The notes: generated by a model from the sequence alone, not told the origin. A DNA stretch of 64,000 bases from Arenicellales bacterium (GCA_965206345.1 OZ242211.1:2382419-2446418), one strand, 5' to 3'; positions 12,666-33,565 are shown, numbered from the stretch's first letter. A program made the numbers and translations.

Positions 12666-13083
12666 TAGAATCCGCGTTGCAGTTGGTCTGGTACTTGATT
12701 CTCAGCGCCGCGTACTCATTGGTTGCCGTACCGTACCAGATCAGTATTTTGGGAAGTGGGAATTCCCAGGTGGGAAGATTCAAAATGGTGAATCGGTATC
12801 GGATGCCTTGAAACGAGAGCTCGATGAAGAGATTGGAATTTCGGTAATTTCCTCTACGCACTTTGACAGTTTTAACTATGATTATCCCGACCGAAAAGTG
12901 AGGCTTAATTTCCGGCTGGTAGAACGCTATTCTGGAGAACCAAATAGTCTTGAGCAGCAGGACTTACGCTGGGTTGAAATCAACGACTTGGGCAGGTTTG
13001 ACATGCTTGCACCAAACACTAGAATCATTGAACAATTGAAGATATTAAACAGGCAGGCTGCGGATGGCGAAATCTCCATTTAA
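12646..13083 (+). CDS. mutT: 8-oxo-dGTP diphosphatase (NUDIX hydrolase)
   Basis: WEFPGGKIQNGESVSDALKRELDEEIG NUDIX box. The ATG at 12646 is in frame with the listed ORF; secA-argJ-mutT synteny. Confidence 0.85.
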   Translation: MPNIEPDRIRVAVGLVLDSQRRVLIGCRTVPDQYFGKWEFPGGKIQNGESVSDALKRELDEEIGISVISSTHFDSFNYDYPDRKVRLNFRLVERYSGEPNSLEQQDLRWVEINDLGRFDMLAPNTRIIEQLKILNRQAADGEISI

Positions 13084-14335
13084 ACGTTATTCCGGTTTCT
13101 CCCTGTTTCGAAATGCGCTGTCGAACCATCGCAAATGGCCGCGGGCCTGGCGCGACCCGGAACCTAAAAATTCTTACGATGTCATCATTATCGGTGCCGG
13201 TGGTCACGGTTTAGCAACTGCCTACTACCTGGCCAAACTGCATGGTGTCAAGAATATAGCGGTTTTGGAAAAGGGCTGGTTAGGCGGCGGCAACACCGGA
13301 CGCAATACCACGATAGTACGGTCCAATTACATTTTGGATGGTAACGCCAATTTTTACGAGCATTCACTCAAGCTGTGGGAAGGGCTATCGAAGGACCTGA
13401 ACTACAACGTCATGTTCAGCCAGCGTGGTGTGTTGAATCTGGCACATAGTGATTCTGAAATGGAATCTTTTGCGATACGCGGAAATGCAATGCGGCTAAA
13501 TGGAATCGATGCCGAACTGTTGTTGCCTGATCAGATACGACAGATGGTGCCGCACCTTGATTGTTCTCAAACAACTCGTTATCCAATATTTGGCGGGCTG
13601 TTGCAGGAACGGGGAGGTACTGCAAGACACGATGCAGTTGCCTGGGGGTATGCCCGAGGTGCTGATGCACTCGGAGTCGATATTATTCAAAACTGTGAAG
13701 TCTCCGCTATACGCGTTAAGAATAACCGTGTGATTGGTGTTGACACAAACCGAGGGTCGATTGATGCTCCAAAGGTGGGCTTGGCAGTAGCCGGAAATTC
13801 GAGTCGACTGGCCGCTATGGCAGGACTTAAACTGCCAATCGAATCTCACGTGCTGCAGGCAATGGTGACTGAACCACTCAAGCCAATTATTCACACAGTG
13901 GTGACATCTGGTGCCTCGCATGTTTATGTCAACCAGACCGACAAGGGTGAGGTGCTGTTTGGCGGTGACCTCGACCTTTACAATTCATACGCCCAACGCG
14001 GCAATCTGCCAAGAATCGAGTATGTTGTACAGTCGGTTCTGACTCTTTTTCCCTGTTTGCGGCGCGTGCGTCTCATGCGTACCTGGGGTGGTGTTATGGA
14101 CATGTCAATGGACGGAAGCCCGATCATTGGTAAGTTGCCGATTGATGGGATGTACCTTAACGGTGGCTGGTGTTATGGCGGCTTTAAAGCCACCCCCGGG
14201 TCTGGATGGTGCTTTGCCCATACGATTGCGAATGATGAACCCCATGAACTGAACGTAGCACTTAGCCTTGAAAGATTTGAGACTGGTGCGCTGTTGGATG
14301 AAAAGGGCAGTGGAGCATTCGCTTTTTCCCACTGA
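13064..14335 (+). CDS. soxB: Heterotetrameric sarcosine oxidase family, beta subunit
   Basis: IIGAGGHG, GGGNTGRNTTIVRSNY, ARHDAVAWGY and WCYGGFKATP motifs. Confidence 0.93.
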   Translation: MAKSPFKRYSGFSLFRNALSNHRKWPRAWRDPEPKNSYDVIIIGAGGHGLATAYYLAKLHGVKNIAVLEKGWLGGGNTGRNTTIVRSNYILDGNANFYEHSLKLWEGLSKDLNYNVMFSQRGVLNLAHSDSEMESFAIRGNAMRLNGIDAELLLPDQIRQMVPHLDCSQTTRYPIFGGLLQERGGTARHDAVAWGYARGADALGVDIIQNCEVSAIRVKNNRVIGVDTNRGSIDAPKVGLAVAGNSSRLAAMAGLKLPIESHVLQAMVTEPLKPIIHTVVTSGASHVYVNQTDKGEVLFGGDLDLYNSYAQRGNLPRIEYVVQSVLTLFPCLRRVRLMRTWGGVMDMSMDGSPIIGKLPIDGMYLNGGWCYGGFKATPGSGWCFAHTIANDEPHELNVALSLERFETGALLDEKGSGAFAFSH

Positions 14336-14367
14336 CTCTATAGACAGAATACAAGAACGGCTCACGT

Positions 14368-14625
14368 ATGCTATTAATTCCATGTCCCTGGTGTGGTAAA
14401 CGGGCTCAAACCGAGTTCACTTACCGCGGTGATGCGACCATTGAGCGACCTGACCTGGCAGACAGCGATACTCAATGGTATGACTACGTCTACACCCGGG
14501 ACAATCCCCGTGGTGAGCACACCGAGTGGTGGCACCATACCGGCGGCTGTCGAAAATGGTTCAAAGTGCGTCGTAATACTTGGACTCATGAAGTAATATC
14601 AAGCGAACCCCCGGTTCGAGACTAA
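14368..14625 (+). CDS. soxD: Sarcosine oxidase family, delta subunit
   Basis: CPWCG ... HTGGCRKW zinc ligands and RDNPRG. Confidence 0.92.
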   Translation: MLLIPCPWCGKRAQTEFTYRGDATIERPDLADSDTQWYDYVYTRDNPRGEHTEWWHHTGGCRKWFKVRRNTWTHEVISSEPPVRD

Positions 14626-14649
14626 CGCGAACAGGAACTGACAAGACAA

Positions 14650-17637
14650 ATGGGTGCTTTTAGAAATTCCTCCGGCGGTACATTGGATCGAACTCAACGG
14701 ATTCGGTTCCGGTTTGACGGTAAGCAATACTCTGGATTTCAAGGCGATACACTCGCCTCAGCACTGTTGGCAAATGGTGTGCGAGTGGTGGGACGAAGTT
14801 TCAAGTATCACAGGCCCCGCGGCGTATTCGGAATGGGTGTTGAAGAGCCCAGCGCAATGGTGCGTTTACGTACTGGAGCAAGGGCAGAACCTAATGTCCG
14901 AGTAACCGAAGTTGAACTTTTCGATGGCCTGGTAGCGCATTCCCAGCATTGCTGGCCTTCCGTAAACTTTGATCTTGGCGCCATCGCCAATGTCATGTCA
15001 CCCTTGTTGCCGGCTGGGTTCTACTACAAGACCTTTATGTGGCCAGCGACTAAGTGGATGTTTTACGAACACTTTATTCGCAAGGCAGCGGGGTTCGGCA
15101 GGTCAGCGACTGAACCTGACCCGGACAACTATTCAAGGTCTTATGAGTTTTGTGATGTTCTGATTGTCGGTGCCGGACCTGCCGGATTGTCTGCCGCACT
15201 GTCGGCGGCCTCTAGTGGTGCCAAAGCAATGCTGGTTGACGAAACGCCGGATGGCGGTGGCAGGCTCAGATTCGATGACGAAGTGATTAATGACGAGCCT
15301 GCGGACAAGTGGTTGAATGAGACACTGCGTGAGCTGTCGAAATTGCCGAATTTTGAATTTCGCTTTCGAACAACTGCTTTCGGCTACTATGATCAGAACA
15401 TGGTCGCTGCTCTGGAACGGGTTTCAGACCACTTGTCAGAACCGGAACCAGGACAGGTCCGTCAGCGCCTTCTACAAATTCGAGCGAAGCAGGTGGTTCT
15501 CGCCAGCGGCGCAATCGAACGTTCGATTCCTTTTGGATATAACGATAAGCCAGGTGTCATGCTGGCATCGGCAGTACGAGGTTATGCACAGAAGTATGCC
15601 GTGGCTTGTGGTAGGCGAGCTGTAGTGTTTACCAACAATGACAGTGCCTATGCGACAGTCGCTGCACTTCACTCGGTCGGTGCTAAAGTTACCGCAGTGG
15701 TTGACTCTCGTACACAGTCTCCTGGCAATCGAGCACTTGAACAACTTGGTGATACAAAGTTGATTCAGGGCTCAGTTGTGATGAAGACCAAAGGTCTGCG
15801 CTCGGTTCAGGCGGTCGAAATCGGACAGATAACCAGTGAAGGTGAATCACCAAAGAAATCGCACGTGATTCGATGTGATTTGGTGTGTGTATCTGGTGGC
15901 TGGACACCGACGGTACATTTATTTTCACATGCCCAGGGAAAACTAAAATTCGACGATTCCATCGGTGCCTTCGTTCCGGGAGCTGACCTTCCGGCTTTGC
16001 ATATCGCTGGCAGTGCAAACGGCGAGTTTTCACTGGCAGCATGTCTTCGGCAGGGTAGTGATGCGGGAATTGAAAGTGCGAAACAGGCGGGATATGAAAT
16101 TACCGCATCAGTCTCAATTCCGACCTCACCGGAGGAGTCCATAGGCGACTTGGAACCGTTATGGGGCGTACCTCGAACGGGGAGTACAGTCAAGCGATTT
16201 GTCGACATTCAAAATGACGTCACAATTGATGACATTGAACTTGCGCACACGGAGGGTTTTGTTTCAGTTGAACATCTCAAGCGATATACCACGCTTGGCA
16301 TGGGTACTGATCAGGGTCGAACCAGCAATATCAATGGATTGGCCAACCTAGCCCGGCTGCGAGAAGCAGAAGTTCCCGAAGTTGGACACACGACATTCCG
16401 TCCGCCATATACACCTGTATCGCTGGGTGCGCTTGCTGGAATTGACTTTGGCGAACATTTAAGCCCAGTACGACGCACACCACTCCACCAATGGCATGAA
16501 CGTAATCATGCTCACCTGCAAAATTCCGGGGTATGGAAACGTCCTGCTTACTATCCTCGAACAGGTGAAAGCGTACAGGACGCCATCTTGCGAGAAACCA
16601 AACACGTAAGGGAAAAAGTCGGGATTACAGATGTTTCTTCTTTGGGAAAAATCGATGTTCAGGGACGTGATGCGGCTGAATTTTTGGAGCGAATATATAT
16701 CAATCGATGGAAATCTCTGCAGATTGGCCGCTGTCGGTATGGACTGATGCTGCGAGAAGACGGGTTTGTATTTGATGATGGGACTTCGACCCGCCTGTCG
16801 GAAAATGAATTTTACATGACCACCACAACTGCGAATGCCGGACCGGTTCTGGAGCACATGGAAATTTATGCACAAACTGTGTGGCCGGATTTACATGTTC
16901 ATCTTACCTCGATTTCTGACCAGTGGGCTGGAATGGCACTCGCCGGTCCATTCAGTCGAAATGTTCTAAGCTCTTTGATTGGTGAGCAGGCGGCTAGTAA
17001 TGAGAACCTGCCATACATGGGCGTCATCAAAGCACGAATTGCCGATGTGCTGGTTTTGGTTTTTCGTGTGAGCTTTTCTGGTGAACTCGGGTACGAAATT
17101 CACATGCCTTCCAGGCAGGCCGAACTGATTTGGGAGACGATTCTGGCCGCCGGACAGGAATGGGAGATTGCTCCCTATGGTTTGGAAGCAATGACCATTC
17201 TTCGAATTGAAAAAGGGCATGTTGTTGCTGCAGAACTTGATGGTCGCACAACAGCAGCCGACTTGGGGTTTGGGCGAATGATGAAACCTGATGGCGACTA
17301 TGTTGGCAAACGGCTGGCTGAACGAGGTGCTTTGACAGCTAATGGACGAAAGCAGTTGGTAGGCATCAAGTCCATTGATAGCAGTCCAATTCCGCGTGGT
17401 GCCCAGATCATCGCTGAACCCAGCGGCGGAAAGTCAACGCAGACTTTTGGACAGGTCACTTCTGCGTGTTTCAGCCCGCACCTTAACCGGGAAATTGGTC
17501 TCGCACTTATTAAGGATGCGCGTCTGATTTACGGGAAAACAATGTACGCTGCTTCACCCTTGACCGGACGGGAAGTACCGGTTGAAGTTGTTCATCATAT
17601 CTTTATTGATCCCGAAGGTGAACGAGTCCGTGGCTAA
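14650..17637 (+). CDS. soxA: Sarcosine oxidase family, alpha subunit
   Basis: GRSFKYHRPRG, GFYYKTFMWP, HLKRYTTLGMGTDQG and a C-terminal GcvT-like folate-binding domain. Confidence 0.94.
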   Translation: MGAFRNSSGGTLDRTQRIRFRFDGKQYSGFQGDTLASALLANGVRVVGRSFKYHRPRGVFGMGVEEPSAMVRLRTGARAEPNVRVTEVELFDGLVAHSQHCWPSVNFDLGAIANVMSPLLPAGFYYKTFMWPATKWMFYEHFIRKAAGFGRSATEPDPDNYSRSYEFCDVLIVGAGPAGLSAALSAASSGAKAMLVDETPDGGGRLRFDDEVINDEPADKWLNETLRELSKLPNFEFRFRTTAFGYYDQNMVAALERVSDHLSEPEPGQVRQRLLQIRAKQVVLASGAIERSIPFGYNDKPGVMLASAVRGYAQKYAVACGRRAVVFTNNDSAYATVAALHSVGAKVTAVVDSRTQSPGNRALEQLGDTKLIQGSVVMKTKGLRSVQAVEIGQITSEGESPKKSHVIRCDLVCVSGGWTPTVHLFSHAQGKLKFDDSIGAFVPGADLPALHIAGSANGEFSLAACLRQGSDAGIESAKQAGYEITASVSIPTSPEESIGDLEPLWGVPRTGSTVKRFVDIQNDVTIDDIELAHTEGFVSVEHLKRYTTLGMGTDQGRTSNINGLANLARLREAEVPEVGHTTFRPPYTPVSLGALAGIDFGEHLSPVRRTPLHQWHERNHAHLQNSGVWKRPAYYPRTGESVQDAILRETKHVREKVGITDVSSLGKIDVQGRDAAEFLERIYINRWKSLQIGRCRYGLMLREDGFVFDDGTSTRLSENEFYMTTTTANAGPVLEHMEIYAQTVWPDLHVHLTSISDQWAGMALAGPFSRNVLSSLIGEQAASNENLPYMGVIKARIADVLVLVFRVSFSGELGYEIHMPSRQAELIWETILAAGQEWEIAPYGLEAMTILRIEKGHVVAAELDGRTTAADLGFGRMMKPDGDYVGKRLAERGALTANGRKQLVGIKSIDSSPIPRGAQIIAEPSGGKSTQTFGQVTSACFSPHLNREIGLALIKDARLIYGKTMYAASPLTGREVPVEVVHHIFIDPEGERVRG

Positions 17638-18151
17638 TCGAAAGTCAATTCCAAGTGTCCTTGTACTTGAGATTGAATTCAGTCTGTTGTATCAGGTGCA
17701 TGGGCTGACAACTGAAAGTTGTGGTAATCGGCTGAACGAATTTGGAGTTCTTTTATTGCCGGCTTATGGAAGGTCTGTAGCAGGTGATGATTTCGAAATA
17801 CTAAGCAATGGCCCCGGAATGTGGATGGTTCAGTCGCGAAAAAGGGATAGCGAAATGACATTGGTGCGCTTGCGAGAATTGCTGGCTGACACAGACGCAA
17901 GTGTTACGGATCTGTCGTCTGCAAGATTGACTGTTCAAGTGTCAGGTGTTTCAAGTCGGACGTTTCTAAAGAAAGGTTGTCCAGCTGACATCGACTCGCT
18001 GGTATCGGGTGACGTAATTTCGAGCGTTATCGGTCATTTAGGTGCAACCATTCATTGCATGGGCGACGATTTTATTGTCTATGTATTGCAGAGTTTTGGG
18101 ACCGATTTCTGGGAATGGTGTCGTCTGAGCGCAATGGAATTCAACATGTGA
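17630..18151 (+). CDS. soxG: Sarcosine oxidase family, gamma subunit
   Basis: GTG start overlapping the soxA stop; GPGMWMV, TDLSSARL and KGCPADI motifs. Confidence 0.8.
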   Translation: MANRKSIPSVLVLEIEFSLLYQVHGLTTESCGNRLNEFGVLLLPAYGRSVAGDDFEILSNGPGMWMVQSRKRDSEMTLVRLRELLADTDASVTDLSSARLTVQVSGVSSRTFLKKGCPADIDSLVSGDVISSVIGHLGATIHCMGDDFIVYVLQSFGTDFWEWCRLSAMEFNM

Positions 18152-18412
18152 GCAAAGCTCGCCTCAGCACACTGGTTTACATTGGGTTTTCGAAATCTGT
18201 TGACTTGCCAAGGCCAATGCCGCATTCAATGCTCTAAGAGAGGGAGAATTCCTCTTTCTGAAAAATTCTGACAATTACTTCCCGTTCAGTTCGTAGTTCA
18301 CCCCTCGCTAAAAGCTCTCTTGATAGGTGTTACTGCCCCTACTACACCGGACGGAATGTTGTGCAGTTTCAATCCTTGCCAGTGAACCTGATTACAGACA
18401 TTGAATATTGAA

Positions 18413-19282
18413 TTAGCAAATCGCGTGACAGAGTCGAAAAGTCGGTGTGAGTCTTTGCGAAGCCGGCATCTTTGAGAAGTATTGCAGGTTGATTGTGTCC
18501 GTATCTGGAATATCGGTACTGCTATACCCGCAGTCAAGTGCTAAGTCAGATAATTCATCGGGGGAAAAGTGTGTGAGAAACGGTTCACCTCGTCTCGCAA
18601 CGAATTTCGTCAACTTGTGATAAGCCACAGTCCACTCGTTGGGCACTAAATGGGGCGATATTCGAAAATCGAAGAAAATTGCTGAGCCTTCTATCGAGTT
18701 ATCGGCAACGCTCTGCAAAGTCTGCACAATGGTTTCGCGAGGGAGGTAGTAAGTTACTCCAAACCAGGAGAAGGCAGTTTGCTTTGTGGCATCAAAGCCA
18801 TTCTCTTTTAGGGCTGTAAATAGAGGCACTTCATTTAAGTCTGAGTCGATGTAACGTACATTTTTCGGTATCGGGATACCATGTTCTGCCATCCTTCTAA
18901 ATTTTTCGTTTTGAGTTCCTGGTTGATCGAGTTCAAACACAGTTATTCGATCTTGCAGATCTGTTCTTCGCATCGCAAAAGAATCGTAACCTGCACCGAT
19001 GATCACATACTGTTCCACTCCTTGTTCGATCATTGAATCAACGATGTCTTCACAATAGCGTGCTCGGGTAGCAACCCAGGGTGCTAGGGGGAGAATATCC
19101 TTGAGCATAACATTGATCACGAACCAGCTCAAAAACTTAGAACCTAAAATTCTCCTCCAACCGCTTCCGCATAATTGAATTGCGAATGGGTCCACGAATA
19201 TGGGCGGATCATAAGTCTTCAAATGGCGAGCCCGTGTTGCAGCAACGATATCTGCTGTTTTACTAGGTTTTGACGCGTCCAT
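18413..19282 (-). CDS. Class I SAM-dependent methyltransferase (LCM/TIGR00027-like)
   Basis: TADIVAATRA, FVDPFA, QYVIIGAGYDSFA and VFELDQP motifs. Confidence 0.85.
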   Translation of the reverse strand: MDASKPSKTADIVAATRARHLKTYDPPIFVDPFAIQLCGSGWRRILGSKFLSWFVINVMLKDILPLAPWVATRARYCEDIVDSMIEQGVEQYVIIGAGYDSFAMRRTDLQDRITVFELDQPGTQNEKFRRMAEHGIPIPKNVRYIDSDLNEVPLFTALKENGFDATKQTAFSWFGVTYYLPRETIVQTLQSVADNSIEGSAIFFDFRISPHLVPNEWTVAYHKLTKFVARRGEPFLTHFSPDELSDLALDCGYSSTDIPDTDTINLQYFSKMPASQRLTPTFRLCHAIC

Positions 19283-19981
19283 GTCTATTCACCTTGAATC
19301 GTAATAATTTGTTTTGCCGCGGTAGGGGAACCTGGCAGTTGTTTCCTACGCTATGAATTTTATTTCAAAAGGCTCTGGTATGGGGCAACCGAACTGTTTC
19401 ATACAACTAAGGCCTTAGGACTCATTGTCGAATAAATTTGATCGTTGGCGCACAACATTGTTAATGCAGACGCGAATATTGTTCTCTGGACGACCGCGAC
19501 CGACCGCATCTCCAAGCGCCCGCGATGCCCATGCCATTCAATTCGATATCGCATCTGAAGCGCACATCAAGGCGGTGAGAAAAATTCGGTGAATACCTCT
19601 ATACAATTAAGTTTATTGGTATTTGTAAGGTTGACACGAATCTTCAGTTTGGGTACTCCAAAAAACGAATAGCAAGCAAACTCAGTCAGCTTACGGGCGA
19701 TTGAACCGCTCGTTCAGTCAAAATCACACGCTCAGTTTGAATCGTCCGTTTGAGGATACTGTTTCAGTACATTGCGTTATCCGGAAAACATTAAAATCTG
19801 CACCAAGTTAGTTTTCTCAGTTGAATTTTTGGATGAAGTATTCAATTGTCATTTGTAAAATTGACTCAGAAAAAATATTCCCAAACATTCAAAAGTAGTG
19901 ATTTTGTCGAGGTAATTCATTGAATGTGATGCAAGAAAAATGGATTTTTTGCTTTGCGTCTGTTGGAAAGGAATGTGAGTT

Positions 19982-20971
19982 ATGGCAAGGCTGAAGAATG
20001 ACTGGTATCTTTGCACAATAGACAAAGATACCTTGAGGGCGATTTCAAAACGATCTGACAAGCCAGCATTGATCTGGTTCGGTAGTTATTTTCTGCTTTT
20101 GGCTCTTGCTGGAATACTTGTCGCTTTGACTTGGGGAACTTGGTGGTTAATTGCTCCACTGCTGATATACAGCGCACTTTGGGGGTGTGCTGCGTCTGGC
20201 GTCCACGAAACCTGCCACAAAACTCCATTTCGTACAGTTTGGCTGAACGAAATTGTGCTTTGGACATTCGGGTGGATGGCGCAAATGGAACCTATTGCGG
20301 TAAGGTGGGGGCATTTGGGACACCATAGTTTTACTCATTTCGATGAAGGTGATACAGAGTTGTCAGAGCCTAATCCGGTGACCTGGAAGGTGTTCTTCAA
20401 GATAGGCTCTGGATTAGGCGGCACATTTTTTTATTGGAAAGCTTTAATTGCACAGGCATTTGGACACATCACAAGTGAAATGCTCGATGTCATCCCGCCA
20501 AAGAAAGTGAATTTTGCAATTAGAAATGCTCGAATTATGGTTGGTGTTTATGCATTGTTCGCCCTTTGGGCTTTGATTGCCCAGTCTTGGCTGCCCGTAT
20601 TGTTAACGTTTGCACCTCGAATACTTGGAGGTCCTGTTACGGGCCTGCTTCATCTGACTCAGCATACCTGCCTGCAAATGAACGTTCGCGATCATCGACT
20701 GTCAACGCGAAGTTTTGTAGCAAGCCCATTAACTCGGTATTTCTATTTCAACATGAACTATCACGTCGAACATCATATGTTTCCGATGGTACCTTTTTAC
20801 AATTTGCCAAAATTGCATGCTGCGATTACGGATCAGTTGCCAGAGCCATGTGATGGCCTTTTTGGGGTCTTTAGTGAAATCGCTGCCGGGATCAACAGAC
20901 AACGAAAGGACCCCAGTTACTTTGTTCGGAAAGTGTTACCGGAACATTCAAACGCAGCAATTGTTCCGTAA
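19982..20971 (+). CDS. Fatty-acid-desaturase-fold membrane di-iron enzyme (MocD-like hydroxylase)
   Basis: Three His boxes (HETCH, HLGHH, HVEHH), hydrophobic segments and the MNYHVEHHMFPMVPFYNLPKLH motif. Confidence 0.85.
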   Translation: MARLKNDWYLCTIDKDTLRAISKRSDKPALIWFGSYFLLLALAGILVALTWGTWWLIAPLLIYSALWGCAASGVHETCHKTPFRTVWLNEIVLWTFGWMAQMEPIAVRWGHLGHHSFTHFDEGDTELSEPNPVTWKVFFKIGSGLGGTFFYWKALIAQAFGHITSEMLDVIPPKKVNFAIRNARIMVGVYALFALWALIAQSWLPVLLTFAPRILGGPVTGLLHLTQHTCLQMNVRDHRLSTRSFVASPLTRYFYFNMNYHVEHHMFPMVPFYNLPKLHAAITDQLPEPCDGLFGVFSEIAAGINRQRKDPSYFVRKVLPEHSNAAIVP

Positions 20972-20973
20972 AC

Positions 20974-21798
20974 ATGAAAAAAATTTATACCTTTGGTCGA
21001 AGGCCTGCTAAAAGAAACTATACAGTTTTTGACCTGCAATCGTTAAAGGGAACAGGCAAACGTCTAACGATGTGTAATCCGGCAAATGCAATCGAGATTC
21101 GCGCTTGTGTAGACGCAGGCATCGACACATTGACCGTTTGGGACGATCAGGTTGAGTCTGCCCGCGAAATTGCACCCCATCATTTTATGGGTACCGCGAT
21201 GAACTGGGGGCAATTCGCCACTGCCGACGATATATTGCGACATGCAGTCGAGTGCATGGAGCGTGGTGCAGACATGTACTTCACTAATCGCAGTTTCGAA
21301 ATTGTAGAAATGCTTTCTAAGGAGAGTATTCCAGTGCAGGCTCACATGGGCCTAGTGCCATCTTTGAGTACCTGGTGTGGTGGCTTGCGCGCGTTTGGTC
21401 GTACTGCGGATGAAGTGATGAAAATTTACCAGACATTCAAACGCTATGAAAACTCTGGATGCTTTGCAGTAGAGATTGAATGCGTTGCTGAAAGAGCGCT
21501 ACAGCTTTTGAATTCGAAAACTTCAATCGTAACGTTCTCGCTTGGTAGCGGCAAGGCTGGAGACGTAATTTTTCTGTTTATGTCTGATATTTGTGGGGAA
21601 GAGCCAAATCCGCCCAAGCATTCTCACGCATTTCGGAATCTGCAGCCCTTGCACGAACAGTTGTACAACGAAAGGGTTGCCGCCCTAAAGGAATTTCATT
21701 CCGAAGTTTCTGCACTAAAGTTTCCATATGAGGAGCAGAGCATTCCCATGTACCCGGGAGAAGAAGAGAAACTTCTCGAAATACTTGACAGTGTCTAA
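20974..21798 (+). CDS. Divergent ketopantoate-hydroxymethyltransferase-like (PanB fold) protein
   Basis: IPVQAHMGLVP, GGLRAFGRT, AVEIECV and SLGSG match the PanB C-terminal half. The N-terminal TAYD and VGDS motifs are replaced (TVWDD). Confidence 0.75.
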   Translation: MKKIYTFGRRPAKRNYTVFDLQSLKGTGKRLTMCNPANAIEIRACVDAGIDTLTVWDDQVESAREIAPHHFMGTAMNWGQFATADDILRHAVECMERGADMYFTNRSFEIVEMLSKESIPVQAHMGLVPSLSTWCGGLRAFGRTADEVMKIYQTFKRYENSGCFAVEIECVAERALQLLNSKTSIVTFSLGSGKAGDVIFLFMSDICGEEPNPPKHSHAFRNLQPLHEQLYNERVAALKEFHSEVSALKFPYEEQSIPMYPGEEEKLLEILDSV

Positions 21799-22178
21799 GC
21801 TACCAGTACTGTGGGTGAAATTCAATTTACTGAATTGTCCCGACTACTCGCAGGACAACCTTAGAAATCAGTGATCGATTTTCAGTCGGAATCTGACAGT
21901 CATTGACAACATTCAAACCTAAACTCTTTACGTCAAACTCAGGTTAACGTAGTCAACACGACGAGTTGAAAACTAATTGGAGTTTGTGGAATTGGATTCA
22001 GCCAAGAACGATTCGTGCGACGCAGCTGCGATCTGTGAAACCACATAGCATCAAACATGCGTTTCAACAAAATTGGAAGAATGCCGGAATAAAAGTAGAA
22101 CTTGATCGCTACAATATCATTCCCTTTTTACTGGCGGTCAAAGAATCGACACCGTGCACAGGTTGAAGTATAGGAAAA

Positions 22179-23222
22179 ATGTTCAAAGTCAAACTGGAAG
22201 AGCGACAGGGTACGCAGGAAATTCTTGTATCCAAAGGGGAGCGGCTTCTATATTGTGGATTGCGCAATGGATTCAATTTGGCACATGACTGTGCGAGTGG
22301 AGTTTGCGGTACCTGTAAAGCGGTTTTGATTTCTGGTGAGGTTTCGTCCTTGTGGTCGGAGGCTCCCGGCAACAAAATTGTCAGAGAAGAACGCAACGAG
22401 TTTCTAATGTGTCAGGCAGTTGCTAAGACCGACGTACATATTAAAGTTCGCCCAGCAGTGCCGTCGCCGGCCCCCAAACCTCAGCCAGGGACCCTAAAGG
22501 GGGTGATCAAGAACCACCGAAGCCTGAATCTGAATGTAGCGGTGTTTGAATACCACTTGTCGCAGCCAGTTCAGTTTCTGGCGGGACAGTTTGCTACAGT
22601 GCAACTGGAGGGAATTCCTGGCTACCGCGCCTATTCAATGACAAATTATTCCGCTGAACCGACTCAGTCTCTTCATTTTGTCGTGAAACATATTCCTGGA
22701 GGAAAGTTGACCGATTGGCTTTTTCAACAGAATCGAGATGGTCATGAATTGATGGGTTTCGGACCAGTTGGGCGGGCAGTTTTCGCTCCGGAAAGTGACG
22801 GTGACTTCATCGTTCTGGCAGGTGGGTCTGGCATTGCTGGAATTATGTCAATTCTCCAGCATGCTTCAGATTGCGGTCACTTCGAAAAGTACCGAGGAGA
22901 TGTCGTATTTGGTCTCAATGGACCGCAGGATGTCTTTTTTTTAGATGAACTCAATTCGCTCGCTGGCAGATACAAAAATCTAAGGGTCATCGTCGCACTG
23001 GTTGAGCCAGATAGAAGTGGTTCTTTAACGAGTGATTATCTCAATTTGGAGTTTTCTGAAGGATATCTGAGCAATGTAGCAAATGAAGTTCTGGGAGATT
23101 TATCCGAGATTACAGTGGCGTTTGTCGCCGGTCCGCCACTCGCTGTTGAAACTTCCCAGAAAATGTTGGTAATGGAACGGAAGGTTTCTGCAAGAAAAAT
23201 GAGGTTTGACCGTTTCGGCTGA
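22179..23222 (+). CDS. 2Fe-2S ferredoxin / FAD / NAD(P)H reductase (monooxygenase reductase type)
   Basis: CASGVCGTC...C cluster, RAYS flavin motif, AGGSGIA NAD motif, VAGPP and terminal FDRFG. Confidence 0.88.
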   Translation: MFKVKLEERQGTQEILVSKGERLLYCGLRNGFNLAHDCASGVCGTCKAVLISGEVSSLWSEAPGNKIVREERNEFLMCQAVAKTDVHIKVRPAVPSPAPKPQPGTLKGVIKNHRSLNLNVAVFEYHLSQPVQFLAGQFATVQLEGIPGYRAYSMTNYSAEPTQSLHFVVKHIPGGKLTDWLFQQNRDGHELMGFGPVGRAVFAPESDGDFIVLAGGSGIAGIMSILQHASDCGHFEKYRGDVVFGLNGPQDVFFLDELNSLAGRYKNLRVIVALVEPDRSGSLTSDYLNLEFSEGYLSNVANEVLGDLSEITVAFVAGPPLAVETSQKMLVMERKVSARKMRFDRFG

Positions 23223-23235
23223 GCACCGGGTTTCT

Positions 23236-23988
23236 TCACGCTAGTTTATCGGTTAGAGTTGGCTGATCCTGACTTTCCAACACCTTGGCAGACTTAGCAA
23301 TTGTCAGTGCATCTTCTGCCAGCAGATCTAAATGTTTTTCCATGCTGAGCTCGGCAATTTCGGGTGTATGGTCTTCAATGGCTTCCAATATCGCTTGATG
23401 TTCCTCATTCGATTCTTCTATTCGATGTGGTCGAAAAGTAACCAGTCGTCGATAAGGTGAAAGACGCTTGTCAATTGAAGCTATCTGTTCAATCAAGGCT
23501 GAGTTCTTTGCTGCAATAAAGATCTGCTCGTGAAAAACCTGATTGGCAGAGTAGTAAATCAAGGGATTAAGGGTTTTTGCTGCCTCAATACACTTTTCGT
23601 GTGCCATTCGAATGAGTGCCAGATCTTCAACTGTTGCTCGAATTGCTGCTTTTTTGGCTGCAAATGATTCTAGTGTCGCAACCAGTTCAAACATTTCCAT
23701 AATTTCGTCAAGCGAGGGTTTGACGACAAAAACACCAGCATTTCGACGCTTCACTACCAGTCGAGCGGCACTCAAGCCTTCAAAAGCTTCACGAATGGGC
23801 GTTCGAGACACTCCGTAGCGCTTAGCCAGGCGGTTCTCATCCAAATGTTCACCAGGACTGAATTCTCCGCGAATAATCGCTGTCTCGATTTCCTGCTGAA
23901 TCAGCTTTGAAGTGGCCAACTGTGCGGATACGCTGGATTTTTTGAGCGTAGGATTTTCCATGGTTGTCGAAGTATCTGTCATTCGCAT
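23236..23988 (-). CDS. GntR (FCD) family transcriptional regulator
   Basis: LAKRYGVSRTPIREA wHTH; NQVFHEQI and EEHQAILEAI in the FCD domain. Confidence 0.92.
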   Translation of the reverse strand: MRMTDTSTTMENPTLKKSSVSAQLATSKLIQQEIETAIIRGEFSPGEHLDENRLAKRYGVSRTPIREAFEGLSAARLVVKRRNAGVFVVKPSLDEIMEMFELVATLESFAAKKAAIRATVEDLALIRMAHEKCIEAAKTLNPLIYYSANQVFHEQIFIAAKNSALIEQIASIDKRLSPYRRLVTFRPHRIEESNEEHQAILEAIEDHTPEIAELSMEKHLDLLAEDALTIAKSAKVLESQDQPTLTDKLA

Positions 23989-24044
23989 TAAATTTTAGTA
24001 TATGTAAAATTATGCAACCGCTAAATGACAGTCCTGCATAGTGC

Positions 24045-24389
24045 GGAACACCTCAGTCAGGTGTCCAGGAGTCAATATCGAAGGTAGATCTGGACCTAGT
24101 TGTTGATACAATTGCCTGGTTATTGAATCTCTTTTCGAGTCTCGATGACGTTCAGTCGCGGTACTCAAGGGTACGTTATTAAGCAGTTGCTTCTGATCAG
24201 CGGTTACTTTTGGGACCATTGGAGTTTGACGGATTGTTTATCGCCGCTGACGATGCCGGAACGGGATTTTTTCGAGCGCCGGATGTTGGTTAACTGCTAA
24301 GTGACATGGTTTCAGATTCTGAACCCTTCTTGCGCCACGATCTATACGAACCATACCGGTTTGTAAACCAGCCACGTCCAGAACAGTGA
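24045..24389 (+). pseudogene. Decayed C-terminal fragment of a DAO-family FAD-dependent oxidoreductase
   Basis: One frame with two internal stops reads ...VRY*AVASDQRLLLGPLEFDGLFIAADDAGTGFFRAPDVG*LLSDMV...LYEPYRF. This matches the DAO C-terminal pattern (TPD..P.LG....GL..A....G.GF..AP.VG..L...........P.RF). Confidence 0.6.
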
Positions 24390-24621
24390 TCACCAATTAC
24401 ATCGACGGCAGCGCATATGAGGTGAATGAGGATGCCATCCTCGGTCACGTGTTGCACGAAGTTAAATCTGCAAAATTTGCAGGCAATTAGTACTGGACTC
24501 GACTTGTAATGGAACGCTTTCAAGGACGAATTGGTGGTGTTGCTGTATCAAGATTGCCAGCGAACCAATTTGGCTTGGACCCAAGAATATTCGATTTCAA
24601 TCAGCCGCAATTACCACTTCG

Positions 24622-24739
24622 ACCTGTATCGATAAATGTTGTACACGATACCTTTGCACGAAAGAGCGTGTAGATGATCGCCATGTTTGAAATTTTGTCG
24701 ATGAAGTGTCAAAATTTACCGTTTGGTAAATCTGCTCCC
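24622..24739 (+). repeat. Diverged direct-repeat copy of 36999-37117
   Basis: Manual alignment gave 89/119 identical positions with one gap. Confidence 0.7.
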
Positions 24740-24758
24740 ACTCTTACTTTAGGTCAAT

Positions 24759-24988
24759 TGAATTTGTTACCTGGCCAGTTTCTCAGAAATTGAATCGGGT
24801 GCTGTTGAATCTGAATATTCAACTTCCTGATAAGAGTTTTGACGATACGGTTGAAGCATTGGAGTCGCTCGAAGTTGGCCTTCCACCGAGACCCATAGAA
24901 GGAGCACACGGAGCTTTGGCTGAAATTTCCAGAGAGTTTCCACTTGCTATAGTTTCGGATACCATCAATGCCTCCGGAACGGGTCTTC
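24759..24988 (+). pseudogene. 230-bp internal duplicate of the HAD hydrolase gene (copy of 37481-37710), with no start and no C-terminus
   Basis: Manual alignment gave 221/230 identical positions with no gaps; 8 amino-acid changes relative to the intact gene. Confidence 0.92.
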
Positions 24989-25044
24989 TTCACCGCAATT
25001 TATCTGATGAGTGTCTACACTAGTAGCACTTGGCGGGACTAAAG

Positions 25045-25926
25045 TTACTCACCTGCTGATTCAGGATTTTCGGTTTCAGACAGCGCTTTTTGAAATCTTG
25101 CATCCCGGTAGTATCCCAATGCAATGATCAGTGACTGGGCAAGAACTATAGGTCCAGATAAAGGACGAAATCGATGTACGTTCGCATCACGAACAATAAA
25201 ACAAAGACTCGAATTTCGAGCAAGAGGACTAGTCATTAAATCAGTAATTGCGAGCACAGGAACGTTGCGGATGTATGCGTCGGAGACTGCGTCGACAACA
25301 GGTTGTGCATATTCAGCAAAACTAACGGCGATTAACAGGTCTTGCGAGTTCAAAGTTGCAACCTGTTGATTGAGCATACCACCAACAGAATCTAGCAAGT
25401 GACAACGGTACTCAAGTCTAGCTAGTCCATAAGCAAGATATGCCGCGATCGGAAATGCGCGTCGTTGCCCAATGACATAAATTTCGTCTGTACCGTCCAT
25501 CATACGAATCGCTTCCTGCAACTTGTCTCCATCAATATCATCTTTCAAGTGCTGCAGTGCCAGTATTGATGCATCAGCGAATTCATTAAGGATAGCAGCC
25601 GGGTCAGTCTCAGCTATTTCTTCCATTTTCTGGTGGTGATCGTAAATCTGATCACGAAACGTGGGAACTCCTTCAATTAAACGCAATCGAAAGACGCGTT
25701 GCATTTCGGAGAATCCTGAATATCCAAAGACCTTAGCCAGCCGAATCAACGTGGATGGCTGCACACCTATTTGTTGCGCTATTTCAGCGACAGTATGCAA
25801 CGCAAAGCGATTTGGATCTTCAAGGGAGTATTGCGCAACTTTCTTTAAATGCGGGCTTAATTCCTCAAACTGGTGTTGAATAAGCTCACGCAATCGATCG
25901 AAGTCTAGAGGCGCTGCATTGTCCAT
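25045..25926 (-). CDS. MurR/RpiR family transcriptional regulator (HTH + SIS)
   Basis: GVQPSTLIRLAKVFGYSGFSEMQ HTH and IYVIGQRRAF / IAVSFAEY SIS motifs; divergent from the catabolic operon. Confidence 0.92.
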   Translation of the reverse strand: MDNAAPLDFDRLRELIQHQFEELSPHLKKVAQYSLEDPNRFALHTVAEIAQQIGVQPSTLIRLAKVFGYSGFSEMQRVFRLRLIEGVPTFRDQIYDHHQKMEEIAETDPAAILNEFADASILALQHLKDDIDGDKLQEAIRMMDGTDEIYVIGQRRAFPIAAYLAYGLARLEYRCHLLDSVGGMLNQQVATLNSQDLLIAVSFAEYAQPVVDAVSDAYIRNVPVLAITDLMTSPLARNSSLCFIVRDANVHRFRPLSGPIVLAQSLIIALGYYRDARFQKALSETENPESAGE

Positions 25927-26368
25927 TACAAGGTGCTCATTTTCATTCCATCTGGCTCAGGTTCTGTTCCCACCATTGCCCTGACCAGAGAAGACTTCGA
26001 GATAAATCGAATCAAAAAGTAGTTTGTCAGAAATCGAAATAGCTTCTTAATGTTGGCTCAACTGAACCCCAATCGCTATCAATTCCCATTGATCACTGAC
26101 GCTTTCAAATTGTTAATTGTAGTGCATGTGAAATGGGTTCATTTTCCACAATTTTGCGTTGTCAACTTTTGAAAATTCAATGCTCACAACACTAAGAAAA
26201 TTATCGACACGACACGCCAACGATTCACCAAAGTTTTATTCAGATGCCTCGCAATTTGAACTCAATGCAGATAATTTGATAAAAAAGAATAAATATTCTA
26301 ATATTATGTATAAAATAAATATTCATTTAATTACATCTAAAATAAACAATAATTCTATTAGATAGGGA

Positions 26369-27292
26369 GTGCAGATGACAGCAGTTGGTCTTGCCGGTAT
26401 GGGGCTGATGGGCAGTGGAATAGCAAAGAATATTCTTGCTGGTGGTTATTCATTATTCGTCGTTGGCCACAAAAGAAGGTCTTGTATAGACGATTTGGTT
26501 CAGCGCGGGGCGAAAGAGTTTCAAACTTATCGTGAACTAGCGGAACACAGTAACTTGATCATTCTTTGCGTTACTGGAAGTCCTGAGGTTGAAAGCATTC
26601 TTTATTCAAAGGATGGGCTATTGGAAGGGATTCACAAAGACAAGATTGTTATTGACTGCTCAACGAGCGAACCTAGTTCAAGTGAACGAATCGCGATTTC
26701 GCTGAAAAAATTGGGGGCATCGTTAGTCGATGCTCCTCTCGCGCGCACTCCGGACGATGCACAAGCAGGTCGTCTTAACACTATGGTTGGTGCATCAAAA
26801 GATGATTTTCAGCGCGTTGAACCCGTACTGCAACAATTTTGCGAAAACATTTTCCATATGGGACCGGTAGGTTCAGGCCACAAGACCAAACTAATCTACA
26901 ACTTCATTACCATGGGTTATGCGGCAATTATTTCCGAGGCCTTTTGCGCTTGCGCTGCTACTGGAGTTGATTTGAAGAAATTTTCTGATGTGGTAGCTTC
27001 AGGTGGAGCTAACAGCGGAATATTTCAGTTGATCGCACCGAAAGCAATTGAATCGGGAGATTGTTCCGGACTTAATTTTAGTATGGCCAACGCGGCCAAA
27101 GACCTTCGCTATTACAACCGTATGATGGATACCATTCCTCTTTCAGGTAATTTGGGAAGATTAGTGCATCATGCACTCATTCAAGGTCTTAACCTCGGTT
27201 ACGCTGATGGATTGGTTGGAGATTTGCTGCACGTGCAAGAAAAGCTCAACGGAGTGCAAATCTTGAATCAAAAACCCGAAAACAACGCTTGA
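26369..27292 (+). CDS. NAD(P)-dependent beta-hydroxyacid dehydrogenase (HIBADH/GarR family)
   Basis: GTG start; GMGLMGSGIA Rossmann motif, IDCSTS, VDAPLA and GHKTKLIYN catalytic Lys. Confidence 0.88.
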   Translation: MQMTAVGLAGMGLMGSGIAKNILAGGYSLFVVGHKRRSCIDDLVQRGAKEFQTYRELAEHSNLIILCVTGSPEVESILYSKDGLLEGIHKDKIVIDCSTSEPSSSERIAISLKKLGASLVDAPLARTPDDAQAGRLNTMVGASKDDFQRVEPVLQQFCENIFHMGPVGSGHKTKLIYNFITMGYAAIISEAFCACAATGVDLKKFSDVVASGGANSGIFQLIAPKAIESGDCSGLNFSMANAAKDLRYYNRMMDTIPLSGNLGRLVHHALIQGLNLGYADGLVGDLLHVQEKLNGVQILNQKPENNA

Positions 27293-27364
27293 TCTATAGC
27301 AGCCCTTTCTAGTCTTATTGGACAATTTTTTAGAGCACAACCCAACACTAAAAGGAGAAATTCA

Positions 27365-28684: not shown

Positions 28685-28707
28685 TCTCATCAAATCAGTC
28701 AATCAGT

Positions 28708-28738: not shown

Positions 28739-28776
28739 TAAAATTGTCCCGAGCATCGAAACATCTTGAGGTTCGT

Positions 28777-29703: not shown

Positions 29704-29706
29704 CGG

Positions 29707-33551: not shown

Positions 33552-33565
33552 TACTAGCGAAAAAA

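What the first reader, a model, noticed from the sequence alone, without database searches (positions are those of the whole stretch)
19982..23988. Candidate new demethylation/C1-capture module: di-iron desaturase-fold enzyme + PanB-like protein + dedicated 2Fe-2S/FAD reductase + GntR
Seen: a His-box membrane enzyme is followed 2 bp later by a PanB-fold gene. On the same strand follows a monooxygenase-type reductase, then a convergent GntR regulator. Known: desaturase-fold enzymes with their own reductase act as methyl hydroxylases (XylM/XylA of xylene monooxygenase; MocD proposed for rhizopine demethylation), and PanB transfers hydroxymethyl groups via methylene-THF. Inference: the oxygenase hydroxylates a methyl group and the PanB-like protein removes or channels the hydroxymethyl unit, possibly onto THF, instead of releasing free formaldehyde. 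No panC or panD is nearby, so pantothenate synthesis is unlikely. The nearby THF-linked sarcosine oxidase fits a C1-oriented metabolism.
Basis: partly seen in the sequence, partly recalled or inferred. Interest (0 to 1): 0.75.

Follow-up and report, generated by a model that had tools for sequence, protein, structure and literature searches.

The report
Oxygenase paired with PanB-like C1 enzyme
A membrane iron oxygenase, its reductase and a remodelled copy of the vitamin-B5 enzyme PanB form a gene module that recurs in many bacteria; it probably removes methyl groups and passes the carbon to folate, but no one has tested this.

Summary
The window holds a His-box FA_desaturase-family gene (19982-20971), then a PanB-fold gene 2 bp later (20974-21798). 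A Fer2-FAD-NAD reductase (22179-23222) and a convergent GntR/FCD regulator (23236-23988) follow.

The PanB-like protein is not PanB. It lacks the Asp84, Lys112 and Glu114 equivalents and a 21-residue segment. The genome has two full-length panB-type genes elsewhere. A 34%-identical R. etli homologue failed to complement a panB mutant in published work.

The pairing is not chance. This PanB-like family sits next to membrane di-iron oxygenases of two different Pfam families in Arenicellales, Rhodobacteraceae and Oceanospirillaceae. In rhizobial plasmids it is the fourth gene of mocDEF-like operons. Paired members occur in every major branch of its tree.

The module is loose, though. One sister genome deleted the PanB-like gene cleanly. 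The reductase is unlinked in most relatives. The GntR gene is conserved in only three genomes.

Best reading (about 0.45): the oxygenase hydroxylates a methyl group and the PanB-like enzyme moves the hydroxymethyl or formaldehyde unit onto tetrahydrofolate. The substrate is unknown and folate use is untested. I found no paper addressing what the PanB-like partner does.

The parts
19283..19981 (+). 699-bp non-coding region upstream of DES; presumed promoter/operator region
   Evidence: No ORF was assigned here. Promoter-like matches are no more frequent than in shuffled sequence. Only weak palindromes were found. Its function is inferred.
19982..20971 (+). DES: membrane di-iron oxygenase of the FA_desaturase family (MocD/XylM-like), the presumed methyl hydroxylase
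   Evidence: PF00487, 117 bits. Three His boxes and hydrophobic segments. Relatives at 35-40% identity sit next to MocE-type Rieske ferredoxins and FAD reductases. Orthologues occur in 11 same-genus genomes.
20974..21798 (+). PANBL: PanB-fold TIM-barrel protein with a rebuilt first half of the active site; the presumed hydroxymethyl/formaldehyde-to-folate transferase
   Evidence: Pfam matches the C-terminal two-thirds only. The AlphaFold model has pLDDT 87.6 and its top fold match is PanB 1m3u, TM 0.64. Asp84 becomes Ala75, Lys112 becomes Phe103 and Glu114 becomes Asn105, while His136 (His124) and Glu181 (Glu169) are kept. A 21-residue segment is missing. The family forms its own clade.
21088..22087 (+). 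1000-bp segment (most of PANBL plus 289 bp downstream) that is cleanly deleted in sister genome G088
   Evidence: blastn against L068. The junction alignment shows PANBL codons 1 to about 38 kept, then joined to window position 22088.
21799..22178 (+). 380-bp spacer between PANBL and RED; no convincing ORF and no terminator-like hairpin
22179..23222 (+). RED: NAD(P)H-dependent reductase with an N-terminal plant-type [2Fe-2S] domain and an FNR-like FAD/NAD module (XylA/BenC/MmoC type)
   Evidence: Pfam and NCBIfam domain hits. Motifs. Orthologues occur in 10 of 11 DES-carrying same-genus genomes and in 0 of 4 without DES.
23236..23988 (-). GntR/FCD-family transcription regulator, convergent with RED
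   Evidence: PF00392 + PF07729. It is conserved next to RED only in G088 (89%) and L026/G024 (90%).
13064..18151 (+). Context: soxBDAG heterotetrameric sarcosine oxidase; SoxA has a folate-binding GCV_T domain
   Evidence: It is syntenic in G088, G058 and G135.
18413..19282 (-). Context: LCM/TIGR00027-family SAM-dependent methyltransferase, divergent from DES
   Evidence: It is conserved in G088 at 85% and occurs in the same hot spot in G033 and G147.

Best explanation
This is a two-step oxidative demethylation module. RED takes electrons from NAD(P)H through FAD and its [2Fe-2S] domain to the di-iron centre of the membrane oxygenase DES. DES hydroxylates a methyl group on a small soluble metabolite, most likely an N- or O-methyl group and possibly a C-methyl group. 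PANBL keeps the PanB fold and the PanB His/Glu pair but has lost PanB's Mg2+/2-oxo-acid site. It takes the resulting hydroxymethyl unit (or nascent formaldehyde) and transfers it to tetrahydrofolate as 5,10-methylene-THF. That would feed the cell's large folate-linked C1 metabolism instead of releasing free formaldehyde. GntR would switch the genes on when substrate is present.

Shown: gene content, domains, fold, residue changes, recurrent linkage, and that PANBL can be lost while DES and RED stay intact. Inferred: the substrate, the position hydroxylated, folate use, the reaction direction and the regulation.
For: 1. Architecture. DES has the 8-His motif. RED has the XylA/BenC-type layout.

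2. DES relatives belong to the MocD class. They sit next to 'MocE family' Rieske ferredoxins, FAD reductases and sugar ABC transporters. Papers call that cluster mocDEF and link it to catabolism of an O-methylated inositol derivative.

3. PANBL-family genes lie directly beside membrane di-iron oxygenases in many lineages:
- DES type 1 in 7 same-genus genomes.
- A 34-36%-identical DES type 2 in G114, G109 and G088.
- PF04116 FA_hydroxylase in Rhodobacteraceae, Oceanospirillaceae, Rhizobiaceae and Bradyrhizobium.
- The fourth gene of the FA-desaturase/MocE/reductase operon in R. etli, R. phaseoli and S. meliloti plasmids.

4. These oxygenases are the commonest upstream neighbours: 5 FA_desaturase and 5 FA_hydroxylase among 69 ORFs scanned, which were up to two upstream ORFs per locus. 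Paired members occur in every major branch of the PANBL tree, and FA_hydroxylase partners appear in at least 4 separate places. The oxygenase varies while PANBL stays constant. That points to a shared by-product, a C1 unit, rather than a shared carbon skeleton.

5. Other PANBL neighbours also resemble formaldehyde-releasing demethylase types: DgcA-like flavoproteins, a GbcA-like Rieske oxygenase, PhyH-family enzymes and MttB.

6. PANBL keeps the second half of the PanB barrel, including His136 and Glu181. It has replaced the Mg2+/oxo-acid half.

7. It is not PanB. Two full-length panB-type genes lie elsewhere in the genome. The R. etli homologue did not complement a panB mutant (34% identity).

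8. The genome is built for folate-linked demethylation, with 24 GCV_T hits.

9. [quoted passage not shown]
Against: - No direct evidence exists for folate binding or for any activity. I know of no PanB-folate complex structure, so the pterin site could not be mapped.
- The residues invariant in the marine group (Thr104, Arg106, Cys207, Glu209) are not kept in the rhizobial group. The active site is therefore not uniform across the family.
- PANBL is dispensable. It was deleted in G088 while DES and RED stayed intact. DES occurs without PANBL in G093 and G098.
- About two-thirds of the PANBL loci sampled have no adjacent di-iron oxygenase.
- RED is unlinked in most relatives. In G147 it belongs to a Rieske oxygenase operon.
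- Co-transcription of DES, PANBL and RED is unproven.
Confidence: 0.45

Rival explanations
1. PANBL is a folate-independent carbon-carbon lyase, aldolase or isomerase of the isocitrate-lyase/PEP-mutase superfamily. It would act on the carbon skeleton produced by the oxygenase, for example by retro-aldol cleavage of a newly made beta-hydroxy carbonyl compound, or by fixing formaldehyde onto an enolisable metabolite. Folate would play no part.
For: After PanB, the next-best fold matches are lyases and mutases of this superfamily: methylisocitrate lyase, dimethylmalate lyase and oxaloacetate decarboxylase. The general-base Glu is retained. Some loci carry sugar kinase, DeoC-like aldolase or sugar isomerase genes beside PANBL. 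A full-length PanB-type gene heads a Rieske oxygenase operon in G147. That hints at true oxo-acid aldol chemistry in related modules.
Against: The Mg2+ ligands and the Lys/Glu that hold the oxo-acid in PanB and its superfamily relatives are gone. The partner oxygenases are very diverse while PANBL stays conserved, at 63-82% identity across phyla. That fits a common small co-substrate better than many different skeletons. PANBL can be lost while DES and RED stay intact, as in G088. That is odd for an obligatory pathway step.
Confidence: 0.2
2. The module is biosynthetic and runs in the forward PanB direction. PANBL would add a hydroxymethyl group from methylene-THF to a precursor. The oxygenase and the neighbouring SAM methyltransferase would then tailor it into an osmolyte, lipid head group or natural product.
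For: An LCM-family methyltransferase is the divergent neighbour and is conserved in G088. In the same genome a full-length panB-type gene sits in a TauD - FA_hydroxylase - PanB - GMC oxidoreductase row near methyltransferase and GNAT genes.
Against: The regulators are of catabolic types: GntR/FCD here, and LacI or LysR elsewhere. Uptake ABC transporters flank the rhizobial versions. The window's module sits beside sarcosine oxidase in a genome rich in demethylases. No scaffold-building genes are present.
Confidence: 0.1
3. DES is an ordinary lipid desaturase or hydroxylase that modifies membrane acyl chains or hopanoid-like lipids. RED would be its electron donor, and PANBL would be unrelated to its chemistry.
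For: The Pfam family is named for fatty acid desaturases. The protein is membrane-embedded. The weak NCBIfam hits include a Delta(10) desaturase.
Against: The genome has four other FA_desaturase-family genes, one scoring higher against the profile. The relatives of DES are the MocD-type enzymes found with soluble ferredoxins, sugar transporters and catabolic regulators. The other weak NCBIfam hit is GntB, a hydroxylase that acts on free arginine. The distribution is patchy and accessory, at 11 of about 23 genomes sampled in the genus.
Confidence: 0.08
4. There is no functional coupling. PANBL would be a decaying or moonlighting PanB paralogue that is merely carried next to oxygenase genes.
For: PANBL was deleted in G088. 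DES is decaying next to an intact PANBL in L003, L007 and L008. The neighbourhoods are otherwise variable. [quoted passage not shown]
Against: There are many intact full-length copies, at 63-82% identity across Gammaproteobacteria, Alphaproteobacteria and Actinomycetota. The family has 31 invariant residues. Adjacency to two unrelated oxygenase families recurs in every major branch of the tree.
Confidence: 0.07

Closest known systems
MocD/MocE/MocF of the rhizopine (3-O-methyl-scyllo-inosamine) catabolism genes, and the mocDEF-like operons on rhizobial plasmids
   Same: DES belongs to the same branch of the FA_desaturase family, at 35-39% identity to the plasmid copies. Those operons carry a PanB-like gene of the PANBL family as a fourth gene in R. 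etli, R. phaseoli and S. meliloti. Their proposed job is removal of a methyl group.
   Different: The window has no MocE-type Rieske ferredoxin or MocF-type reductase. It uses a fused Fer2-FNR reductase instead. The gene order is oxygenase, PanB-like, reductase. The regulator is GntR rather than LacI. The context is amine/sarcosine metabolism, not sugar or inositol. MocDEF activity itself rests on genetics and a model, as cited.
Xylene monooxygenase XylM/XylA and alkane hydroxylase AlkB (from general knowledge)
   Same: A membrane 8-His di-iron hydroxylase of methyl groups. XylA has the same layout as RED: a plant-type [2Fe-2S] domain followed by an FNR-like module.
   Different: Those systems act on hydrophobic hydrocarbons and have no PanB-like partner. 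No NCBIfam model for them matched DES. No solved structure matched DES by sequence.
PanB, ketopantoate hydroxymethyltransferase (EC 2.1.2.11)
   Same: The fold and the second half of the barrel, including His136 and Glu181. In the proposed mechanism it handles the same one-carbon carrier, methylene-THF.
   Different: PANBL lacks the Asp84, Lys112 and Glu114 equivalents and a 21-residue segment. It scores far below the curated cut-offs and lies on a long separate branch. A homologue does not replace PanB in vivo.
GcvT-type folate domains of SoxA, dimethylglycine dehydrogenase and related demethylases
   Same: The proposed job is the same: catch the C1 unit released by oxidative demethylation as methylene-THF. 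Such domains are abundant in this genome, and one lies next door in SoxA.
   Different: PANBL has an unrelated fold with no GCV_T domain. It is a separate polypeptide rather than a domain of the oxidising enzyme.
RHE_PE00443 of Rhizobium etli CFN42 plasmid p42e
   Same: It is a member of the same PanB-like family, at 34% identity and E = 7e-49. It lies in an oxygenase/ferredoxin/reductase operon. The equation with the old locus tag rests on position and on it being the PanB-like gene of p42e.
   Different: It is the only member with any experiment, and that was a negative test for PanB function. It lacks the Thr104/Arg106/Cys207/Glu209 signature of the marine group.

Membership tests
PanB / ketopantoate hydroxymethyltransferase | PanB TIM-barrel fold, Pfam PF02548 | tested here: met
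   PF02548 scores 94.7 bits against a cut-off of 28.7, on profile positions 74-258 only. Top Foldseek hits are PanB structures, TM about 0.64.
PanB / ketopantoate hydroxymethyltransferase | Score above the curated equivalog cut-offs (TIGR00222, NF001452) | tested here: not met
   63.4 bits against 207.55, and 80.8 bits against 272.
PanB / ketopantoate hydroxymethyltransferase | Mg2+ ligands Asp45 and Asp84 (E. coli numbering) | tested here: not met
   Asp84 aligns with Ala75. Asp45 aligns with Asp57 in the window, but that position varies within the family.
PanB / ketopantoate hydroxymethyltransferase | Lys112 and Glu114, which hold the oxo-acid and metal water | tested here: not met
   They align with Phe103 and Asn105.
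PanB / ketopantoate hydroxymethyltransferase | General base Glu181 and His136 | tested here: met
   Glu169 and His124 are invariant in 35 family members and in canonical PanB.
PanB / ketopantoate hydroxymethyltransferase | Conserved segment after strand 2 (GDSLGMV...T..VT...M..H) | tested here: not met
   A 21-residue gap relative to both panB-type genes of the same genome.
PanB / ketopantoate hydroxymethyltransferase | Supplies ketopantoate in vivo (complements panB) | not testable with these tools
   A published test was negative for the 34%-identical R. etli homologue. The window protein itself is untested.
Membrane di-iron oxygenases of the FA_desaturase family (AlkB/XylM/MocD) | Three His boxes giving eight iron-binding histidines, plus membrane-spanning hydrophobic segments | tested here: met
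   H75ETCH, H111LGHH and H261VEHH; hydrophobic stretches at 28-74 and 182-211. PF00487 scores 117 bits.
Membrane di-iron oxygenases of the FA_desaturase family (AlkB/XylM/MocD) | Dedicated electron-transfer partner encoded nearby | tested here: met
   RED lies 1.2 kb downstream on the same strand. It co-occurs with DES in 10 of 11 genomes and is absent from 4 of 4 genomes without DES.
MocDEF rhizopine-type system | MocE-type Rieske ferredoxin and MocF-type FAD reductase next to the oxygenase | tested here: not met
   None is present in the window. They are present beside DES relatives.
MocDEF rhizopine-type system | Demethylation of an O-methyl cyclitol | not testable with these tools
   No inositol or sugar genes flank the window module. 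The substrate is unknown.
Class IB oxygenase reductases (XylA/BenC/MmoC type) | N-terminal plant-type [2Fe-2S] domain, then FAD-binding and NAD-binding domains | tested here: met
   Fer2, FAD_binding_6 and NAD_binding_1 domains. BenC scores 132 bits and MmoC 118 bits, both below the equivalog cut-offs.
GcvT-type folate-dependent C1-capture domains | GCV_T aminomethyltransferase fold | tested here: not met
   PANBL has no GCV_T match. The resemblance is in the proposed role only.
GntR family, FadR/FCD subfamily | N-terminal GntR winged helix and C-terminal FCD domain | tested here: met
   PF00392 scores 58 bits and PF07729 scores 91 bits.

The most novel reading that the evidence does not exclude
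PANBL and its relatives are a previously unrecognised, PanB-fold, stand-alone enzyme that loads formaldehyde (or an enzyme-generated hydroxymethyl group) onto tetrahydrofolate. That would be a folate counterpart of the formaldehyde-activating enzyme of methylotrophs. Different kinds of oxygenase-type demethylases, in marine, sponge-associated and rhizosphere bacteria, would have recruited it again and again.
Probability: 0.3. Interest if true: 0.85.

Novelty: new variant of a known kind. Interest (0 to 1): 0.64.

Why it matters
Oxidative demethylation of methylated sugars, cyclitols and amines is a major route of carbon and nitrogen turnover in the sea and the rhizosphere, and it releases toxic formaldehyde. 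Some demethylases carry a built-in folate domain to catch the C1 unit. Membrane di-iron and Rieske demethylases do not.

A separate PanB-fold protein doing this job would explain a gene that is misannotated as panB in hundreds of genomes. It would also add a missing step to the mocDEF-type pathways.

It could supply an activity that synthetic-methylotrophy work lacks. Published work shows that the uncatalysed formaldehyde-THF condensation is too slow in vivo to support growth.

Even if the folate idea is wrong, the repeated pairing marks an uncharacterised enzyme family with a clear, testable partner.

Tried and rejected
- Pathway-hole argument. I asked whether DES-RED fills a missing betaine or dimethylglycine demethylase. 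It does not. The genome has about 16 DMGDH-like genes, 4 SoxA, 4 DgcA-like flavoproteins and 5 Rieske oxygenases.
- Phosphonate idea. The GntR gene's best NCBIfam hit is a phosphonate-associated regulator, well below its cut-off. Roseobacter operons carry PhnZ/TmpB-like HD and PhyH genes upstream of the FA_hydroxylase-PANBL pair. The window has no HD or PhyH gene, so this stays a lead for the Roseobacter variant only.
- Domain fusions as a clue. The longer hits in the 1.84-billion-protein library look like fragments or chimeras: a kinase, DUF7483, or DUF4349 joined to a partial PanB fold, plus one protein with two PanB-type stretches.
- Promoter, terminator and palindrome scans gave nothing above chance.
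- Solved structures: none matched DES or the FA_hydroxylase partner by sequence.
- Literature: ten searches found no paper addressing what the PanB-like gene of mocDEF-like operons does. The only paper touching it is the R. etli panB study.
- One look-up (P0056) was not on record.
- The counts of PANBL-like and DES-like hits on Rhizobium and Sinorhizobium plasmids match closely: 142 against 147, and 87 against 85. I do not use this as a statistic. Adjacency was checked in only a few records, and true plasmid-borne panB genes may be among the hits.

Full report
**What is there**

The window carries, on the + strand, a 329-aa FA_desaturase-family protein (DES, 19982-20971) and a 274-aa PanB-fold protein (PANBL, 20974-21798) that starts 2 bp after the DES stop. 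After a 380-bp spacer comes a 347-aa reductase (RED, 22179-23222). A GntR/FCD regulator (23236-23988) converges on RED from the - strand.

- DES has the His boxes H75ETCH, H111LGHH and H261VEHH, and two long hydrophobic regions.
- RED has a plant-type [2Fe-2S] motif (C38x4C43x2C46...C78), the RAYS FAD motif and a GGSGI NAD motif. Its best family matches are BenC and MmoC reductases, below their equivalog cut-offs.
- No terminator-like hairpin separates PANBL from RED, but the consensus scans were no better than shuffled sequence.
- Upstream lie ftsQAZ, lpxC, secA and argJ, then soxBDAG (13064-18151; SoxA has a GCV_T folate domain), then a divergent LCM-family methyltransferase.

**PANBL is not PanB**

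- Pfam matches only profile positions 74-258, and the NCBIfam panB models score far below their cut-offs.
- Against E. coli PanB (1m3u), Asp84 aligns with Ala75, Lys112 with Phe103 and Glu114 with Asn105. His136 (His124) and Glu181 (Glu169) are kept.
- A 35-member family alignment shows 31 invariant residues. They include Arg14, Glu41, Arg64, Asp100, Thr104, Arg106, His124, Glu167, Glu169, Asp205, Cys207, Glu209, His216 and Arg234. The Asp45 position is not conserved.
- Compared with the genome's two full-length panB-type genes, the family also lacks a 21-residue segment after strand 2.
- An AlphaFold model (pLDDT 87.6) is closest to PanB structures (TM about 0.64, about 22% identity). Lyases and mutases of the same superfamily come next.
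- The genome has two full-length panB-type genes elsewhere (340 and 311 bits). Its only panC is 350 kb from the window.
- In R. etli CFN42, the PanB-like gene of plasmid p42e failed to complement a panB auxotroph even when expressed constitutively. The authors noted that 5 of 12 active-site residues were kept and that no metal site was detected. That gene is 34% identical to PANBL (E = 7e-49). It is the PanB-like gene annotated on p42e. I equate it with RHE_PE00443 on the basis of position.

**The pairing with membrane di-iron oxygenases is real and general**

Within the window's genus, PANBL orthologues (79-82% identity) lie next to DES orthologues (67-75%) in seven genomes, counting the window. 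Two further loci keep an intact PANBL beside DES remnants, and one DES copy is frameshifted.

- In three other Arenicellales genomes, a second DES type (34-36% identical to DES) lies directly upstream of more distant PANBL copies (43-58% identical to PANBL).
- In Rhodobacteraceae, Oceanospirillaceae, a Rhizobiaceae MAG and another Arenicellales family, the upstream neighbour is instead a PF04116 FA_hydroxylase. This is a different His-box family. It usually comes with a divergent LysR gene, and sometimes PhyH and PhnZ/TmpB-like HD genes precede it.
- On a Leisingera plasmid the order is PANBL then sterol desaturase. On a Bradyrhizobium plasmid it is ribokinase, PANBL, sterol desaturase, Rieske ferredoxin, sugar isomerase, FAD reductase.
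- On R. etli, R. phaseoli and S. meliloti plasmids, PANBL-family genes are the last gene of LacI-controlled operons made of an FA-desaturase, a MocE ferredoxin and an FAD reductase. The literature calls that cluster mocDEF. The mocDEF papers I checked do not mention the fourth gene.
- A Pfam tally of 69 ORFs, taken as up to two upstream of PANBL at each locus, puts FA_desaturase and FA_hydroxylase first with five each.
- In a maximum-likelihood tree, the PANBL family is separated from the PanB-type outgroup (the PanB2 lineage: this genome's copy and its G088 counterpart) by a very long branch. Oxygenase-paired members occur in every major subclade: MocD-type partners at the base, FA_hydroxylase partners in at least four places, DES type 2 in two places and DES type 1 in one clade.

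**What DES is**

Its wider relatives (35-40% identity) sit beside Rieske 'MocE family' ferredoxins, FAD reductases and sugar-type ABC transporters. Some are fused to a Rieske domain. The weak NCBIfam hits include GntB, a membrane enzyme that hydroxylates free arginine. DES therefore belongs to the branch of the family that acts on soluble substrates, not on acyl lipids. This is an inference.

**How tight the four-gene unit is**

Not very.

- Genome G088 is syntenic: soxBDAG, LCM, DES (91%), RED (95%), GntR (89%). It lacks PANBL. A 1000-bp stretch (window 21088-22087) is missing there, and the first 38 or so PANBL codons remain. The ancestral order was therefore DES-PANBL-RED-GntR, and PANBL was deleted. 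G088 has a separate DES type 2-PANBL pair.
- G093 and G098 have DES without a PANBL orthologue.
- RED orthologues occur in 10 of 11 DES-carrying genomes of the genus and in none of four without DES. In most they lie elsewhere: directly after soxG in G058 and G135, or a few kb further on.
- In G147, RED closes an operon of a full-length PanB-type gene that keeps the Asp45, Asp84, Lys112 and Glu114 equivalents, a Rieske oxygenase alpha and beta subunit and a Rieske ferredoxin.
- The stretch between soxG and a HAD gene is a variable hot spot in this genus.
- GntR accompanies RED only in the window, G088 and G024/L026.

**Context of the organism**

The 3.2-Mb genome has 24 GCV_T-domain hits: about 16 dimethylglycine-dehydrogenase-like genes, four SoxA and GcvT. 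It also has four DgcA-like flavoproteins and five Rieske oxygenases. It is a specialist in stripping methyl groups and passing them to folate.

**Mechanism proposed**

RED passes electrons from NAD(P)H through FAD and its [2Fe-2S] cluster to the di-iron site of DES. DES hydroxylates a methyl group. PANBL transfers the hydroxymethyl or formaldehyde unit to THF.

The main argument is that the oxygenase partner changes family and sequence while PANBL stays conserved. PANBL's job should therefore concern what all these reactions share, a C1 unit. This fits three further observations:

- PANBL keeps the PanB half-barrel with His/Glu and has lost the oxo-acid/Mg2+ half.
- Other PANBL neighbours resemble formaldehyde-releasing demethylase types: DgcA-like flavoproteins, a GbcA-like Rieske oxygenase, PhyH-family enzymes and MttB.
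- PANBL can be lost while DES and RED stay intact.

Published work shows that uncatalysed formaldehyde-THF condensation is too slow in vivo to support growth, so a catalyst would have value. From general knowledge, 2-aminoisobutyrate catabolism offers a precedent for the carbon-bound variant: a methyl group is hydroxylated and the hydroxymethyl group is then moved to THF.

I put this reading at about 0.45. Folate use, the substrate and the direction are all untested.

**Rivals**

- A folate-independent lyase or aldolase acting on the oxygenated skeleton (0.2).
- A biosynthetic module running in the forward direction (0.1).
- A lipid-modifying desaturase with an unrelated neighbour (0.08).
- No functional coupling (0.07).

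**Novelty**

Each component family is known, and mocDEF-like operons are known. The recurrent PanB-fold partner is annotated everywhere as panB. Apart from one negative complementation test, I found no study of it in the library searched. The family is small: 197 clusters at E <= 1e-30 among 1.84 billion representatives. I class it as a new variant of a known kind of system, with moderate to high interest.

Noticed in passing
L092 8022-11107 (G000:C1, about 829-832 kb), outside the window: The genome's second full-length panB-type gene passes the NCBIfam panB cut-offs but has GCMPY in place of ADLPF. It sits in a same-strand row of TauD dioxygenase, FA_hydroxylase, PanB and GMC oxidoreductase, near methyltransferase and GNAT genes. 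This is another PanB-plus-di-iron-oxygenase pairing, in a different PanB lineage.
   Followed up: partly
L087 4524-8714 (G147): This operon holds a full-length PanB-type gene that keeps all canonical active-site residues. A Rieske oxygenase alpha subunit, a beta subunit and a Rieske ferredoxin follow, then a 60%-identical orthologue of RED. LysR and LCM genes are divergent from it.
   Followed up: partly
L019 7242-10825; L023 8024-10822; L065 5340-7825; L016 9255-10723: Roseobacter-group operons place a PhyH-family 2OG oxygenase and/or a PhnZ/TmpB-like HD-domain protein ahead of the FA_hydroxylase-PANBL pair, under a divergent LysR gene. A link to oxidative phosphonate or quaternary-amine cleavage is possible but untested.
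   Followed up: partly
L014, L015, L022, L010 (gammaproteobacterial MAGs): Here PANBL sits between a 688-701-aa OYE-FAD flavoprotein with DgcA-like architecture, an amidinotransferase/DDAH-like gene, a Rieske oxygenase and a second flavoprotein.
   Followed up: no
L066 5443-8796: A non-pyrrolysine MttB-family methyltransferase gene lies directly upstream of PANBL, and a PhyH gene converges on it.
   Followed up: no
Whole genome G000: The 3.2-Mb genome has 24 GCV_T-domain hits, including about 16 DMGDH-like ORFs of 800-840 aa and four SoxA genes. That is an unusually large set of folate-linked demethylases.
   Followed up: no
window 18152-37262: The interval between soxG and the HAD gene at 37263 is a variable hot spot in this genus. 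It is empty in G046, holds only LCM in G033, and holds only RED in G058 and G135. In the window it holds LCM-DES-PANBL-RED-GntR plus the RpiR cassette.
   Followed up: partly
L003 8991-9955; L007 9414-9845; L008 9414-9797: The DES copies next to an intact PANBL are frameshifted or reduced to fragments of 127-143 aa.
   Followed up: no
L077 (S. meliloti R14 pSymB) about 11960-14103: In this strain an IS256 transposase is annotated just downstream of the FA-desaturase/MocE/reductase genes. The PanB-like gene found there in other strains is not annotated, although tblastn still finds a 246-aa match.
   Followed up: no
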